From the IMG/VR virus record IMGVR_UViG_2690316231_000015: DNA of 8,145 nucleotides. One strand, given 5' to 3'. The DNA is from a virus. Taxonomy: Duplodnaviria > Heunggongvirae > Uroviricota > Caudoviricetes. Positions 47 to 5,779 of this stretch are shown piece by piece. The position numbers and the translations under genes are program-made. Positions within the stretch are counted from its first letter, which is position 1, and every line of letters begins with the position of its first letter. A model generated the notes under the pieces. That model worked only from the letters and a program-made list of their open reading frames with translations. It did no database searches and had not been told where the DNA came from.

Positions 47-1051
47 ATGGCTACATACGGCGGTCAGTTTACGCTTACTGAAGTGGTATATGGTGCATAT
101 AAAGGTAAAGAATCCCAGCAGATTTATTTTGTTCCCTTTATGACCGATGGTAGCGGAGTTAATACACCGACAAACAACCCGTCAGAAGATCCTGATATTG
201 CCGGGTCTGGTTATTACGGTTCGGCATCCCGAACGAACAAAAACTGGGTATCATCAAATCGCCCGACGCATTTCAGCTCATGGGCGCGTCGTGGCATTAT
301 TCCCGATCGTATGGCAACTGCTATTCTGAACGTAGCCGGTCGCACCTTAGCCTTCATTAGTGGTAAGGCACCGGAAATCAAACCCTCGCCCGGCGGCGAC
401 ACTCCATCGGGGCCGTCTGATGGTGACACATCCGTTCGTACAGTCTCCCTGCTGCCGACAGCCGGAGAGGCTGCTGCGCAGGGCTGGACCATCACCGGCG
501 GCAGTGTTGCGCTGGAAGATGGTGTGTTTAAGGTTACCAAGCAGAGCAATAAAACTTGGTCCCTGATGCATCCGGTGGATGACGCAGTCTCCCTGCTGAC
601 ACGGGGTGGCAGACTGAGCTGTAAGTTTCGACTGTCAGGCGCACTGACCAACAACCAGTTCGGTCTGGGAATTTATCTGTATACCGATGTAGCGTTACCT
701 GACGTCGTGGCGATGACCGGGACTGGTAACCCGTTCCTGATGTCGTTCTTCACCCAGACCACAGACGGCAAACTGAATCTGATGCATCACAGGAAAGCAG
801 GAAACACAAAGTTGGGCGAGTTCGGGAATTACAGTAACGACTGGCAGACGCTGGAGCTGGTGTTCACCGCCGGCAGTGCCACGGTTACTCCGAAACTGAA
901 TGGAGTGGCTGGCCCGGCATTCCAGGTTATAAAAGACAGTCTGACACTGGGACTGAATGCGCTGACGCTGACGGATATTACCAAAAATGCAGCGTATGGC
1001 GTTGAGATAGAAAGTCTGGTGCTGGAGATAAATGCACCAGCATCATCATAA
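47..1051 (+). CDS. NanS-p-like protein, C-terminal portion (end of a sialate O-acetylesterase-type domain plus a ~280-aa C-terminal domain); probably a 5'-truncated or disrupted gene
   Basis: 334-aa ORF. Residues ~10-95 (EVVYGAY...NNPSEDPDIAGSGYYGSASRTNKNWVSS...HFSSWARRGIIPDRMATAIL) resemble, from memory, the C-terminal end of E. coli NanS/YjhS-type 9-O-acetyl-sialate esterases. Position immediately upstream of the holin matches where nanS-p paralogs sit in lambdoid/Stx prophages. An in-frame TAA at 26-28 precedes the ATG at 47, so the esterase body is not in this frame upstream. Confidence 0.5.
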   Translation: MATYGGQFTLTEVVYGAYKGKESQQIYFVPFMTDGSGVNTPTNNPSEDPDIAGSGYYGSASRTNKNWVSSNRPTHFSSWARRGIIPDRMATAILNVAGRTLAFISGKAPEIKPSPGGDTPSGPSDGDTSVRTVSLLPTAGEAAAQGWTITGGSVALEDGVFKVTKQSNKTWSLMHPVDDAVSLLTRGGRLSCKFRLSGALTNNQFGLGIYLYTDVALPDVVAMTGTGNPFLMSFFTQTTDGKLNLMHHRKAGNTKLGEFGNYSNDWQTLELVFTAGSATVTPKLNGVAGPAFQVIKDSLTLGLNALTLTDITKNAAYGVEIESLVLEINAPASS

Positions 1052-2780: not shown

Positions 2781-2817
2781 TTTTAATTTCACTGAAATTT
2801 AATACGTGACTTTCAGG

Positions 2818-2847
2818 AAAATGCCTCGCAGATGCGGGGCATTTTTG
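2818..2847 (+). terminator. Rho-independent terminator after Rz (possibly bidirectional)
   Basis: Hairpin AUGCCUCGC (2821-2829) / loop AGAU / GCGGGGCAU (2834-2842): 9 bp with one G-U wobble, followed by UUUU (2843-2846). An A-tract (2818-2820) upstream gives a short U-tract on the other strand. Confidence 0.55.
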
Positions 2848-3139
2848 TACAGGTATTTCACCGCGCACCGCAGCGCACTCAACCACGTCGAACCAAACCC
2901 TTTGGAATGAGCCTTTGAGTAGTCAGTTAGTGCTGGTGAGCCTTGACGGGCTGATCTCCTATGCAGCAAAGGTTCATCTCAAAGTAAGACGAACGCTATG
3001 ACAAACCAAGATTCTATAGACCTATCTGATCTTCGTGGAATGGTCAGTTTTCCAGACAAAAGGTAATCACCATAGTCGTATGGCTATGAATCTTGTTGCT
3101 GCAGATAAGCATTTTGTGATTGAAGTGGTCAAATCTCTC

Positions 3140-3168
3140 AAATGCAGTAAAATGCAGTGCGCTATAAT
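3140..3168 (+). promoter_or_regulatory. Candidate sigma70 promoter for the 206-aa gene (consensus -10, weak -35)
   Basis: Perfect TATAAT at 3163-3168, 28 nt upstream of the ATG at 3197. No good TTGACA match at 16-18 bp spacing. Tandem AATGCAGT direct repeat at 3141-3158 just upstream. Confidence 0.3.
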
Positions 3169-3196
3169 TCAATAACGGAGGGAGTAAGGAGAAGTC

Positions 3197-3817
3197 ATGA
3201 AAGATCAAGATGTTAGGTTCGCGGTGCATCATAAGCTTTTGAAAGAATCGCATTTAGATCCAGACTGCCTTGTGGTCGATGAATTTTCCATATCCCTTGG
3301 CGCCAGTAGAGCAGACATTGCTGTAATAAATGGTGTTATACACGGGTACGAGCTCAAAAGTGAATATGACTCTTTGGAGCGTTTGCCTCTTCAAATCAAG
3401 CATTATTCTTCTGTAATGGACAAGGTTACTCTTGTCGTAGCTGAGAAACACCTTGAGGGAGCATTAAAGTTAATCCCAGGTTGGTGGGGCGTTAAAACGG
3501 TTTCTGTTGGGCCAAAAGGCGCCATTCTTATAAAGCACATGCGTGGAGAAAAGCTTAATCGAAACCATGACACATTGATGCTCGCTCAATTGCTTTGGAA
3601 AGATGAATGTATCGACGTACTTGAACGATGGGGCTATTCCAAAGGAATCAAAAGCAAGCCCCGATTTGAGTTATGGAATATTATTGCGGAAAATATTCCA
3701 ATAGCGAATCTCAGGCCTGAAGTCAGAACAGCCTTAAAGAAACGCGTAGGCTGGAAAGTTAAGGCTTGGCAGGCTGAGTCTGCGCCAACCAATAAAGCTG
3801 TCTCACGACTAACGTAA
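3197..3817 (+). CDS. Hypothetical protein with N-terminal PD-(D/E)xK nuclease-like motif (putative restriction-endonuclease-fold protein)
   Basis: 206-aa ORF with strong RBS (AAGGAG at 3186-3191, 5-nt spacer). Motif E29...D40...E52-L-K54 (VVDEF / RADIAVING / GYELK) in an alpha-beta-beta-beta arrangement typical of PD-(D/E)xK enzymes. Hand-counted GC ~43% in 3301-3400, lower than flanking phage genes. Confidence 0.7.
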   Translation: MKDQDVRFAVHHKLLKESHLDPDCLVVDEFSISLGASRADIAVINGVIHGYELKSEYDSLERLPLQIKHYSSVMDKVTLVVAEKHLEGALKLIPGWWGVKTVSVGPKGAILIKHMRGEKLNRNHDTLMLAQLLWKDECIDVLERWGYSKGIKSKPRFELWNIIAENIPIANLRPEVRTALKKRVGWKVKAWQAESAPTNKAVSRLT

Positions 3818-4826
3818 TATGGTGCGTATGTGCAACTTTACGCCATTCTTTAGAGCCGCCAGATTTGTTAGCGCCTAATGATCTTTGGTAAATGTAATCA
3901 TCCCCCCAACTAAATTTGGAGCCAAAGACTTGATACTCTGGCGAACTAACAAGGGTAGTACATAAGTTTTTAGTTTGGCCCCATCCATTTCCTTTAACTG
4001 CGGTACCTTTTACAAAGATCCATGAGGTATCGTTCGAATATCTCACTGAGACATACTGAGACATGAAGCGTGGGTCTACGCTCGTAATGGTAGAGCTAGC
4101 GGTGGGATAATCACTAAAACTTGGCGTTCTTCCATTGCTAAAATTCTGTACTACGTACATCCAAAGATCGTATTCATGGCGCGGAATATGATGAACTTGA
4201 TGTTGCGGTATCCCTGCCTGTGATGCCGGGTATGCGGTTGAAGATAAAATCAAGTTTCTCCACGGAGCTTGGCCTGATAATGTGTTGACCATGCTTAATG
4301 CTTGTTGTTTTAAACTATCAGTTGCGTTTTGAATATCTCCAAAATCAATGATTACATCAATTAAACTAGGATGAATATTTAAGTGGTTAACCAGACTTGT
4401 GAATTGGTGCCATGTCTGGGGGGTGATAGACATAGCGAGCCCATTGATTAAGTTGCGTTGAACAGCATGTATATAGTTTGTTGAATATGCGGGAGAAACA
4501 ACAGGGATAATTTCCTTACCATTTACTCTAGCATCTTGGATACACATATCTAGAGGATGATGGCGGCTCGAACCATGTTTATCTAAATATTTAACATCCA
4601 GCAAAACAGGACGATTGGCTTTCCAGGATGCCGCAAGGTTAATACCGAAGTCAGATAAGTAAGAACTCAAACTCTTCTTGTAGCATTCGTTTTCATAATC
4701 CCAGTCTATGTCTGGAATGGTAATGATCGGAGTAAAACCAGAGAGCGTAGTTTGATCTAAAAGCATCAGAGATTCATATTCAGCAGGCTTCCATTTCAGC
4801 TGTGGATAATATTGATGTTGACTCAT
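3759..4826 (-). CDS. Hypothetical protein, 355 aa, no recognisable motif; convergent partner of the 206-aa gene
   Basis: Long minus-strand ORF with strong RBS (AAGGAG, plus-strand complement CTCCTT at 4832-4837, 5-nt spacer to the ATG at 4826). Hydrophilic, rich in S/T/N/Q/W/Y/H, no TMD, no Walker motif. AT-rich (hand-counted GC 29% in 4301-4400, 48% in 4201-4300). Its 3' end overlaps the 206-aa gene by 59 bp. Confidence 0.7.
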   Translation of the reverse strand: MSQHQYYPQLKWKPAEYESLMLLDQTTLSGFTPIITIPDIDWDYENECYKKSLSSYLSDFGINLAASWKANRPVLLDVKYLDKHGSSRHHPLDMCIQDARVNGKEIIPVVSPAYSTNYIHAVQRNLINGLAMSITPQTWHQFTSLVNHLNIHPSLIDVIIDFGDIQNATDSLKQQALSMVNTLSGQAPWRNLILSSTAYPASQAGIPQHQVHHIPRHEYDLWMYVVQNFSNGRTPSFSDYPTASSTITSVDPRFMSQYVSVRYSNDTSWIFVKGTAVKGNGWGQTKNLCTTLVSSPEYQVFGSKFSWGDDYIYQRSLGANKSGGSKEWRKVAHTHHITLVVRQLYWLAQTQPAKP

Positions 4827-4868
4827 TAAAACTCCTTAAAATCTTTACTTATCCTAAGTATAGTGTTA

Positions 4869-4893
4869 TGGCGTAACGCCAATTGTTTTTATA
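4869..4893 (-). promoter_or_regulatory. Candidate promoter -10 plus palindromic operator-like site upstream of the 355-aa gene
   Basis: Minus-strand TATAAA (plus coordinates 4888-4893) about 60 nt upstream of the start. 13-bp palindrome TGGCGTAACGCCA (4869-4881) lies between the -10 and the RBS, where an operator would sit. No convincing -35. Confidence 0.25.
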
Positions 4894-5049
4894 CACTTGA
4901 AAACATTGGGAAAAGTTGAGCTATATCTAAATTTACAAAATTGGATGTTATAGAAATCGAGGTTTCAACTAGGCATGGAACTGCAAAATTTTTAATGCCT
5001 GCACGCGAAAGTCGTTGGCGGGTCCTTTCCGGTGATCCAGATCGTTACG

Positions 5050-5061
5050 GGGCGGCGACCT
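5050..5061 (+). other. cos: Lambda-type cos site: cosN cohesive-end sequence GGGCGGCGACCT, with flanking cosQ-like and cosB-like sequence (~5010-5130)
   Basis: 5050-5090 (GGGCGGCGACCTCGCGGGTTTTCGCTATTTATGAAAATTTT) is identical to the left end of the lambda genome as I recall it. Upstream GGGTCCTTTCCGGTGATCC...GTTACG resembles the lambda right end. Downstream CCGTTCTTCTTC (5107-5118) resembles a cosB R-site. Sits ~170 bp upstream of the Nu1-like gene. Confidence 0.85.
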
Positions 5062-5230
5062 CGCGGGTTTTCGCTATTTATGAAAATTTTTAGGGAAAAA
5101 TCAGATCCGTTCTTCTTCTTTTTAACTGATTGATTATCAATAGAATTTTAAAAATATAAAAGGATCTGACAAAGGCTGTTTTTGTTAGAAAACGCCATTT
5201 TCAGATCCTTTCTGGTTCCCGGGGGAGTGT

Positions 5231-5779
5231 ATGAACGTCAATAAGAAAAAACTGGCCGATATTTTTGGCGTTGATGTCAGGACCATCACCGCCTGGCAGA
5301 GTCAGGGGTTACCACTAGTTTCTGGTGGAGGGAAAGGGACTGAATCAGTTTTTGATACAACTGCTGCCATTCAGTGGTATGCGCAGAGGGAAGCTGATAT
5401 TGAAAACGAAAAACTCCGTAAAGAGATCGAGGATTTGAGGGCTGCCAGCGAATCAGACCTTCAGCCCGGCACCATTGATTACGAACGTTACCGACTGACG
5501 AAGGCACAGGCCGATGCACAGGAGCTGAAAAATGCTCGTGAGGAAGGCCTTGTCCTCGAGACGGAGTTATTTACCTACATCTTTCAGCGAGTGGCACAGA
5601 ATATATCAGGGATCCTTGTCCGTGTCCCTCAGACACTGCAGCGTAAATACCCTGATATATCACCCGTACATCTTGATGCTGTGAAAACTGAAATCGCGAA
5701 AGCATCCGATGTGGCTTCTGAAGCCGGTGAGAATGTGCGCAGGTGGATTGATGATTTCAGACGAACTGAGGGCGGCTAA
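5231..5779 (+). CDS. Nu1: Terminase small subunit (lambda Nu1-like; NohA/NohD-type)
   Basis: 182 aa. [103 protein letters not shown] parallels lambda Nu1 (N-terminal winged HTH). GGGGGAG RBS upstream of the ATG at 5231. Confidence 0.9.

What the first reader, a model, noticed from the sequence alone, without database searches (positions are those of the whole stretch)
2850..5000. AT-rich two-gene insertion in the Rz-to-cos moron slot: candidate undescribed accessory or anti-phage module
The phage backbone here (lysis cassette, cos, Nu1, A, W, B) is recognisably lambdoid, but the ~2.2 kb between the Rz terminator and cos has no lambda counterpart in my reading. It carries two strongly-RBS'd genes in convergent orientation: a 206-aa protein with a PD-(D/E)xK nuclease-like motif and a 355-aa protein with no recognisable family. 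GC content is visibly lower than the flanks (hand counts 43%, 48% and 29% in three 100-nt samples versus 56% in a terminase sample), pointing to horizontal acquisition. In lambda the same slot holds the lysogenic-conversion gene bor; a nuclease-fold protein with a partner is more consistent with a defence, abortive-infection or toxin-type cargo than with a structural function. I cannot assign either protein to a named system.
Basis: partly seen in the sequence, partly recalled or inferred. Interest (0 to 1): 0.85.

Follow-up and report, generated by a model that had tools for sequence, protein, structure and literature searches.

The report
Gop-less beta–cII defence-type cassette in prophage
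The AT-rich insert between the lysis genes and cos of this lambda-like E. coli prophage is a two-gene cassette (a TIM-barrel "beta" protein and a cII-type nuclease); the same pair is the conserved core of two published anti-phage systems, but here it lacks their toxin genes, so it is a recognisable, untested variant rather than something undescribed.

Summary
Window 3001-5012 is a low-GC segment (0.41, against 0.50-0.52 in the flanks). It carries two convergent genes: 3197-3817(+), 206 aa, and 3759-4826(-), 355 aa. Their 3' ends overlap by 59 nt.

- The 206-aa protein is sce7726/Phage_P4_cII. It is a PD-(D/E)xK nuclease with an invariant E29/D40/E52/K54 set.
- The 355-aa protein is Pfam Beta_protein, a TIM barrel.

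[quoted passage not shown] The window has no gop, HigB or Xre-peptidase partner.

The pair is tightly conserved:
- 77 of 80 cII-seeded loci from many phyla have the partner gene.
- 41 of 41 beta-seeded viral loci have it.
- All three independent PD-lambda-2B-seeded loci have it.
- The genes are always convergent and almost always overlap at the 3' ends.

An identical cassette sits in the Rz-Nu1 slot of mosaic lambdoid prophages. It occurs in 126 of 5426 complete E. coli genomes.

The most likely function is prophage-borne anti-phage defence, with cII as the nuclease effector and the faster-evolving beta as sensor or switch. That mechanism is inferred, not shown. I class it as a new variant of a known kind, of moderate interest.

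The parts
2781..3001 (+). Backbone remnant and left junction: P22-like Rz-rha intergenic region plus the first ~24 codons of the antirepressor gene rha, truncated by the cassette. Contains the Rz-distal terminator hairpin at 2821-2847.
   Evidence: 87% identity to P22/BTP1 over 221 nt. The P22 annotation places the match at Rz end +1 through rha codon ~24. Hairpin dG -20.1, z -5.75.
3126..3153 (+). Candidate sigma-70 promoter for the cII-like gene (TGGTCA-16-TAAAAT). Weak evidence.
   Evidence: Consensus scan gave 9/12 matches. The number of such sites in the region is no higher than in shuffles.
3197..3817 (+). cII-like gene (sce7726 / Phage_P4_cII family), 206 aa. PD-(D/E)xK nuclease core (about residues 1-120; E29, D40, E52-x-K54), a C-terminal helical SAP-like domain (about 126-182) and a disordered tail (192-206).
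3759..3817 (.). 59-nt overlap of the 3' ends of the two convergent genes, with no intrinsic terminator between them.
   Evidence: Stop-codon positions. No stable structure on either strand (z +0.5 to +0.6). The overlap is conserved in 74 of 77 loci, median 50 nt.
3759..4826 (-). beta gene (Pfam Beta_protein), 355 aa. TIM-barrel protein whose invariant acidic, His and Arg residues lie on the catalytic face of the barrel.
4827..5012 (-). AT-rich (GC 0.32) region upstream of beta, presumed to hold its promoter. Right junction of the cassette at about 5012.
   Evidence: GC. Similarity to lambdoid phages resumes at query position 233-236, which is window ~5012. No strong promoter consensus was found.
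5013..5230 (+). Backbone cos region (cosN 5050-5061) and cosB-like inverted repeat 5159-5211, upstream of Nu1.
   Evidence: The sequence matches my recollection of the lambda cos sequence (lambda was not aligned here). Blastn hits to lambdoid phages. Inverted repeat I2.

Best explanation
Window ~3001-5012 is a horizontally acquired two-gene cassette. It replaced the rha antirepressor gene in the Rz-to-cos moron slot of a lambdoid E. coli prophage. It is the minimal, toxin-less form of the beta-cII module, the conserved core shared by the P4 gop-beta-cII anti-phage system and by PD-lambda-2-type loci.

Shown: the family membership of both genes, their obligate pairing and architecture, the nuclease and TIM-barrel folds with conserved active-site-like residues, and the mobility of the cassette among prophages.

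Inferred: the cassette protects the lysogen against superinfecting phages. The conserved cII-type PD-(D/E)xK nuclease, with its SAP-like DNA-binding tail, would be the effector that cuts DNA. The faster-evolving TIM-barrel beta protein would be the sensor or switch (possibly an enzyme) that keeps the system silent until a phage product is detected. The two genes would also be coupled by convergent, overlapping transcription.

Beta lies antisense to the prophage late operon. Late transcription of the resident phage could therefore damp the system during its own lytic growth. This last step is speculative.

The confidence of 0.55 is for the statement as a whole. Identity as a beta-cII cassette is about 0.97, a defence function about 0.6-0.65, and the specific effector/sensor mechanism about 0.35.
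For: Identity. P4 has the same convergent beta/cII layout next to cos.

Pairing:
- 77 of 80 cII-seeded loci from Proteobacteria, Firmicutes, Myxococcota, Patescibacteria, Chloroflexota and other phyla have beta immediately downstream and convergent.
- 41 of 41 beta-seeded IMG/VR loci have cII.
- All three independent PD-lambda-2B-seeded loci have beta plus a convergent PF26915 cII gene.

Defence link:
- gop-beta-cII protects against lambda and P1 (PMC9122126).
- It is triggered to kill the cell by phage orf184 (bioRxiv 10.1101/2023.04.06.535777).
- Relatives lie beside HsdR and HsdS and in post-lysis or nin moron slots of unrelated phages.

Effector: the catalytic E/D/ExK set is invariant, including in P4 cII, and the fold is that of restriction endonucleases.

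Sensor-like beta:
- It diverges faster than cII in 70 of 70 loci (median identity to the window protein 31% vs 44%).
- Its invariant D77, D161, R216, D239 and Y263 lie at the C-terminal ends of the predicted barrel strands.

Stand-alone form: about half of the assessable non-redundant loci, including all the Enterobacterales ones, have no tightly linked gene upstream of beta.

Mobility: an identical cassette is flanked by Nu1 at 28-100%, TerL at 66-100% and lysozyme at 34-100% identity. It is present in 126 of 5426 complete E. coli genomes.
Against: - No experiment exists on a two-gene beta-cII cassette.
- In the two tested relatives, the known toxic components are gop (P4) and the Xre-peptidase (PD-lambda-2B). 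Both are absent here.
- The PD-lambda-2 clone extended only ~396 bp beyond the beta stop. It therefore apparently defended without an intact cII gene, which argues against cII being the essential effector in that system.
- Whether ECOR42 has a cII gene there could not be checked.
- The beta fold matches no specific enzyme family, so the sensor or enzyme role is conjecture.
- Promoters are not convincingly predicted.
- No physical interaction between the two proteins was tested.
Confidence: 0.55

Rival explanations
1. A toxin-antitoxin-like addiction or stabilisation module. The cII nuclease is a toxin and beta its neutraliser (or the reverse). The module is kept because its loss kills the cell, and it has no role in phage defence.
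For: P4 beta neutralises Gop toxicity (Ghisotti 1990, as cited in PMC9122126). Vassallo et al. call beta 'a P4 phage antitoxin'. The pairing is strict. The cassette sits next to hok/mok in Rac-SA53 and near a BrnT-like toxin in a Gordonia phage.
Against: The genes are convergent rather than co-transcribed, unlike type II TA pairs. The 355-aa TIM barrel with a conserved catalytic face is unlike known antitoxins. Both tested relatives do defend against phages. TA and abortive-infection roles are not mutually exclusive.
Confidence: 0.15
2. A function that serves the carrier phage's own lytic cycle. For example, a late-expressed nuclease that degrades host or competitor DNA, or processes DNA, with beta as a metabolic or auxiliary enzyme.
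For: In all six phage contexts examined, cII is co-directional with the surrounding phage operon (window; L004, L009, L014; Rac-SA53; DumpsterDude). It would therefore be read by late or early phage transcripts. More distant cII-like nuclease domains occur in large lytic Bacillus and Staphylococcus phages.
Against: The same pair is common in non-phage chromosomal contexts and in defence islands. It occurs in only 126 of 5426 E. coli genomes, while the flanking backbone sequences match in 4228 genomes, so it is dispensable for the phage. P4 calls these genes nonessential.
Confidence: 0.1
3. [not shown]
Confidence: 0.05
4. A decaying remnant of a formerly three- or four-gene system that has lost its toxin module and no longer functions.
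For: gop, HigB and Xre-peptidase are absent. The rha gene at the left junction is truncated, which shows past rearrangement.
Against: Both ORFs are intact with all family-invariant residues. The cassette is 99-100% conserved across many mosaic prophages. The stand-alone pair is the commonest architecture, found in about half of the diverse loci and in all the Enterobacterales relatives. Pseudogenised copies are rare (e.g. L124).
Confidence: 0.05

Closest known systems
P4 gop-beta-cII (DefenseFinder/PADLOC 'Rst_gop_beta_cll'; Rousset et al. 2022; Ghisotti et al. 1990)
   Same: There are homologues of beta (22% identity over the full length; same Pfam family) and of cII (27% identity; same NCBIfam family and the same catalytic residues). 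The convergent beta/cII order is the same, with the beta side facing a nearby cos site. The cassette is carried by a temperate mobile element in a variable cargo slot.
   Different: There is no gop gene, and none in any of the 80 related loci. Here the two genes overlap by 59 nt with no terminator, whereas P4 has a 27-nt gap with an annotated terminator. This cII lacks the ~60-aa C-terminal extension of P4 cII. The beta protein scores better against PD-Lambda-2_C models than against the P4 beta model. The carrier is a lambda-type prophage, not a P4 satellite.
PD-lambda-2 (Vassallo et al. 2022, E. coli ECOR42)
   Same: The beta protein matches PD-Lambda-2_C (4e-32). Natural PD-lambda-2-type loci carry the same convergent, overlapping cII gene downstream of beta.
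   Different: The HigB-like A and Xre/M78-peptidase B components are absent. As published, PD-lambda-2 has three genes and does not include cII.
Escherichia phage Rac-SA53 'CII phage-like protein' + 'beta' (KU052037)
   Same: The same gop-less, convergent, overlapping two-gene pair in a lambdoid phage. cII is 54% identical.
   Different: It sits in a different slot (the nin region, between the replication genes and Q, next to hok/mok) and is a divergent sequence. No function has been tested.
lambda bor / P22 rha (usual occupants of the Rz-to-packaging slot)
   Same: The same genomic slot. Like bor, beta is transcribed against the late operon (general knowledge of lambda).
   Different: Neither cassette protein matched a Bor or Rha family in the Pfam and NCBIfam scans. 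Only the first ~24 codons of rha survive.

Membership tests
Rst_gop_beta_cll (P4 gop-beta-cII defence system) | gop homologue (small membrane / coiled-coil toxin) upstream of beta | tested here: not met
   No ORF of 20 aa or more between beta and cos resembles gop, and there is no room for a 133-aa gene. phmmer with P4 gop found nothing in the 80 related loci; the window itself was not scanned with it.
Rst_gop_beta_cll (P4 gop-beta-cII defence system) | beta homologue | tested here: met
   PF14350 8e-56. PADLOC 'beta' 3e-10. BLASTP to P4 beta 2e-07 over the full length.
Rst_gop_beta_cll (P4 gop-beta-cII defence system) | cII homologue convergent to beta | tested here: met
   PADLOC 'cll' 4e-31. 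NF033832 2e-54. BLASTP to P4 cII 3e-19. Convergent as in P4.
Rst_gop_beta_cll (P4 gop-beta-cII defence system) | Protects against phages (lambda, P1) / abortive phenotype | not testable with these tools
   Requires cloning and phage challenge.
PD-lambda-2 | HigB-like component A | tested here: not met
   No such ORF in the window. Present in 11 of 80 related loci.
PD-lambda-2 | Xre-HTH / M78 peptidase component B | tested here: not met
   Absent from the window. Present in 14 of 80 related loci.
PD-lambda-2 | beta-like component C | tested here: met
   PDLC03984 4e-32 and PDLC03983 2e-25.
Pfam Beta_protein (PF14350) | Score above the gathering cut-off over the full-length model | tested here: met
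   190.3 bits against a cut-off of 27. Residues 6-342 match model positions 1-342.
NCBIfam sce7726 family / Pfam PF26915 Phage_P4_cII | Score above the curated cut-off | tested here: met
   184.1 bits against a cut-off of 70. Homologues carry precomputed PF26915. PF26915 is not in the local Pfam copy.
PD-(D/E)xK nuclease superfamily | Catalytic E...D...E-x-K motif on the alpha-beta-beta-beta-alpha-beta core | tested here: met
   [not shown]
PD-(D/E)xK nuclease superfamily | Nuclease activity | not testable with these tools
   Needs biochemistry.
Type II toxin-antitoxin system | Co-transcribed adjacent toxin and antitoxin genes | tested here: not met
   The genes are convergent, not in an operon.
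Restriction-modification system | A recognisable DNA-modifying enzyme paired with the nuclease | tested here: inconclusive
   No methyltransferase was found. Beta is a TIM barrel with only generic similarity, including to DpdA/TGT.

The most novel reading that the evidence does not exclude
The beta-cII pair is a self-sufficient two-gene immune module and the true core of both gop-beta-cII and PD-lambda-2. A TIM-barrel enzyme or sensor controls a PD-(D/E)xK nuclease. The gop and HigB/Xre-peptidase genes are interchangeable add-ons. The conserved convergent 3' overlap is a built-in antisense switch. In prophages, where beta lies antisense to the phage operon, that switch gives the carrier phage self-immunity during its own lytic growth.
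Probability: 0.25. Interest if true: 0.65.

Novelty: new variant of a known kind. Interest (0 to 1): 0.45.

Why it matters
Two published E. coli defence systems, P4 gop-beta-cII and PD-lambda-2, have no known mechanism and are described with different gene sets. The comparison made here shows that they share one conserved core found across bacterial phyla: a TIM-barrel beta gene and a convergent, overlapping cII nuclease gene. About half of the natural loci, including this prophage cassette, consist of that core alone.

If the two-gene form defends by itself, the effector question for both named systems becomes directly testable with point mutants of the cII active site and of the catalytic face of the beta barrel. 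PD-lambda-2 would also need to be redefined as a four-gene locus. In addition, this would add a case of a lambdoid prophage carrying a relative of an anti-lambda system in its own late operon.

Tried and rejected
- The local Pfam copy has no model for the 206-aa protein. NCBIfam has none for any beta protein, including the Sorangium one, so 'sce7725' could not be equated with beta by HMM.
- Profile searches of PDB sequences gave only noise for both proteins.
- The diverse beta alignment A4 was too divergent for pattern scanning, so the beta-seeded viral scan used the narrower A2.
- P4 gop has no sequence relative in the 80 loci. Two loci carry unrelated TM plus coiled-coil proteins upstream of beta (L052, L067), which are analogous at best.
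- Literature searches for sce7725/sce7726, PF14350, PF26915 and P4 cII found no functional study. Three recent defence-discovery papers do not mention the family.
- The Ghisotti 1990 paper is not held. From memory only, its abstract says that mutating the cII terminator gives a temperature-sensitive phenotype ascribed to impaired beta expression.
- Whether the ECOR42 PD-lambda-2 locus has a cII gene could not be checked, because no sequence was available. Only the clone coordinates are known.
- Rfam found nothing in the window.
- No repeats flank the cassette.
- Promoter-like sites are no more frequent than in shuffles.
Full report
**What is in the window**

The window is the late region of a lambdoid E. 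coli prophage. In order it carries:
- a DUF6645 gene (47-1051; its longer 55989 homologue, suggests the 5' end lies outside the window);
- holin, YdfR, lysozyme (1792-2325) and Rz/Rz1 (2307-2780);
- the segment in question;
- cos (lambda cosN GGGCGGCGACCT at 5050-5061);
- Nu1 (5231-5779), terminase A, W, and the start of the portal gene.

The region 2781-5230 is 100% identical to several E. coli chromosomes and 99.8% identical to strain 55989.

They are convergent, and their 3' ends overlap by 59 nt. GC is 0.406 across 3001-5012, against 0.504 to the left and 0.524 to the right. GC3 is 0.41 and 0.37, against 0.47-0.59 in backbone genes.

**Boundaries**

Window 2781-3001 is still backbone. It is 87% identical to the P22/BTP1 Rz-rha intergenic region plus the first ~24 codons of rha. 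It includes a strong terminator hairpin at 2821-2847 (dG -20.1 kcal/mol, z -5.75). Similarity to lambdoid cos regions resumes at about 5012.

The foreign segment is therefore about 3001-5012. It replaced most of an rha antirepressor gene. No record in the phage collection covers the segment.

**Identity of the genes**

The 206-aa protein:
- It is a full-length member of NCBIfam NF033832, the sce7726 family (2e-54, 184 bits against a cut-off of 70).
- It hits the PADLOC model 'cll' (4e-31).
- Its homologues carry Pfam PF26915, 'Phage_P4_cII'.

The 355-aa protein:
- It is a full-length Pfam Beta_protein, PF14350 (8e-56).
- It hits PADLOC PD-Lambda-2_C (4e-32) and 'beta' (3e-10).

Direct comparison with satellite phage P4 (NC_001609) gives 22% identity over the whole length for beta and 27% over ~200 residues for cII. 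P4 has the layout cos-gop-beta on one strand, followed by a convergent cII. The window has the same convergent beta/cII order with beta facing cos, but no gop. No ORF of 20 aa or more resembling gop lies between beta and cos, and there is no room for a 133-aa gene.

**What is known about relatives**

- Rousset et al. 2022 showed that P4 gop-beta-cII protects against lambda and P1. They cite Ghisotti et al. 1990 for Gop being toxic without beta (PMC9122126).
- Silas et al. showed that a phage accessory protein, orf184, triggers cell death through gop-beta-cII.
- Vassallo et al. 2022 described PD-lambda-2 as HigB-like A, toxic Xre-peptidase B and a 'P4 antitoxin'-like C. C is needed for defence against lambda vir but not for neutralising B (PMC9519451).
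- I found no study of the cII protein or of a two-gene form.

**Structure**

The cII-like protein:
- Its AlphaFold2 model (pLDDT 90) has a restriction-endonuclease-like core.
- E29, D40, E52, K54, R38, S55, D58 and Q66 are invariant in alignments of 16 and 58 sequences. The 16-sequence alignment includes P4 cII.

The beta protein:
- Its model (pLDDT 93.8) is a TIM barrel.
- No solved structure is related by sequence.
- Across 29-64 diverse sequences the invariant residues are Y6, E16, P33, D77, P108, D161, D239, G323 and H336. R216, Y240, Y263 and W328 are nearly invariant.
- D77, D161, R216, D239 and Y263 fall at the C-terminal ends of predicted barrel strands. This is the usual catalytic face, so beta probably binds a ligand or is an enzyme. 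This is an inference.

**Co-conservation**

- A scan of one genome per species with a cII peptide pattern found 402 relatives. Of the best 80 loci, 77 have a beta gene immediately downstream and convergent. These loci come from Gamma-, Alpha- and Betaproteobacteria, Myxococcota, Firmicutes, Patescibacteria, Chloroflexota, Acidobacteriota, Elusimicrobiota, Bacteroidota and Gastranaerophilales. Two of the three exceptions end close to a contig edge.
- The 3' ends overlap in 74 of the 77 loci, with a median of 50 nt.
- A beta-seeded scan of IMG/VR gave 41 loci, all with a convergent cII.
- A profile search found 3773 beta-family clusters at 50% identity. The 150 best-scoring are mostly single-domain proteins of about 350-420 aa, with a few shorter fragments.
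- Beta diverges faster than cII in 70 of 70 loci.

**Accessory genes**

- Fourteen of the 80 loci carry an Xre-HTH/M78 peptidase directly upstream of beta, and eleven of these regions also carry a HigB toxin.
- In L037 these genes hit PADLOC PD-Lambda-2_B (2e-150) and _A (1e-40), and the beta gene hits _C.
- Three loci reached independently through PD-lambda-2B homologues all have beta plus a convergent, overlapping PF26915 cII gene. Natural PD-lambda-2-type loci are therefore four-gene loci.
- The published clone ended ~396 bp beyond the beta stop, so it cannot have held a complete cII gene.
- Other loci have unrelated genes upstream of beta: TM plus coiled-coil proteins in L052 and L067, an HTH-S24 repressor in L064, and DUF6932.
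- About half of the assessable non-redundant loci, including every Enterobacterales relative, have no tightly linked upstream gene. The stand-alone pair seen in the window is thus a common natural form, not a torso.

**Genomic context**

- The 99-100% identical cassette lies between Rz and Nu1 in prophages whose flanks vary widely: Nu1 28-100%, TerL 66-100% and lysozyme 34-100% identity. This shows that it moves as a unit among lambdoid backbones.
- It is present in 126 of 5426 complete E. coli genomes, while 4228 genomes match parts of the flanks.
- Divergent copies occupy post-lysis slots in a Klebsiella prophage (L004), in Photorhabdus and Xenorhabdus prophages (L014, L009) and in Gordonia phage DumpsterDude. 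Another sits in the nin region of phage Rac-SA53, where the authors already labelled the genes 'CII phage-like protein' and 'beta'. Further copies lie beside HsdR and HsdS genes.
- In all six phage contexts, cII is co-directional with the surrounding phage operon and beta is antisense to it.

**Interpretation**

Firmly established:
- The segment is the gop-less beta-cII cassette.
- It was acquired horizontally.
- The two genes form an obligate pair.

Most likely (about 0.6): it is a prophage-borne anti-phage module.

More tentative: the mechanism in which the cII nuclease is the effector and beta the sensor or switch, coupled by convergent transcription. The main counter-evidence is that the known toxic parts of the tested relatives are absent here, and that PD-lambda-2 seems to work without an intact cII.

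The rivals are a pure addiction module, a lytic-cycle function, an R-M-like pair and a dead remnant. All are less well supported.

**Verdict**

The claim of an 'undescribed' system with 'no family' is not. This is a new variant of a known kind, of moderate interest. The interest comes mainly from the unifying two-gene core and from the unrecognised fourth gene of PD-lambda-2.

Noticed in passing
L003-L082 (e.g. L037 6416-6573; window 3759-3817): The convergent 3'-end overlap of beta and cII (median 50 nt, up to 158 nt) is conserved in 74 of 77 loci across bacterial phyla. P4 is an exception, with a 27-nt gap and an annotated terminator. This suggests conserved antisense or transcriptional-interference coupling.
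   Followed up: partly
L037 6001-9122; L127, L129, L130, L131: Natural PD-lambda-2-type loci (HigB, Xre/M78 peptidase, beta) carry a fourth, convergent cII-type nuclease gene. The published three-gene definition does not include it, and the published clone could not have held it complete.
   Followed up: partly
window 2915-3001: A truncated rha antirepressor start (translation '...LVSLDG...') marks the left recombination junction of the cassette.
   Followed up: yes
L085 3501-4115 (Gordonia phage DumpsterDude MT024859): The cII-like gene (43% identical to the window protein, + strand) is not annotated in the GenBank record. A short opposite-strand 'gene 32' is called there instead. In L128 the gene caller also missed cII, although the neighbouring genes are those of L129, where cII is called.
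   Followed up: no
L124 6001-7069: One IMG/VR copy of beta is split into two ORFs (a frameshift or stop). It is a rare pseudogenised copy among 41 viral loci.
   Followed up: no
window 5133-5211: Two promoter-like sites on the minus strand (5172-5145 with 10/12 matches; 5160-5133) and a 23-nt inverted repeat (5159-5181 / 5189-5211) lie between cos and Nu1. These are probably cosB / terminase-binding elements rather than part of the cassette.
   Followed up: no
window 4869-4881: A small GC hairpin followed by a T-run on the plus strand, just upstream of the beta start codon. It is a weak terminator-like site (z -1.2) that could stop rightward transcripts running antisense through beta.
   Followed up: partly
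L052 2211-2750; L067 7602-8087: Unrelated small proteins with a transmembrane segment plus coiled coil sit directly upstream of beta in a Flavobacteriales and a Pseudodesulfovibrio locus. They resemble P4 Gop in style but not in sequence.
   Followed up: partly
one search hit list (Staphylococcus, Bacillus and Lactobacillus phage records): About 280 large lytic Staphylococcus, Bacillus and Lactobacillus phages encode a distant relative of the cII nuclease domain only (residues ~14-145, 26-30% identity), apparently without beta.
   Followed up: no
window 47-1051: The ORF upstream of the holin is a DUF6645 protein (annotated as such in 55989). Its identity varies from 42% to 100% among otherwise similar prophages.
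   Followed up: no
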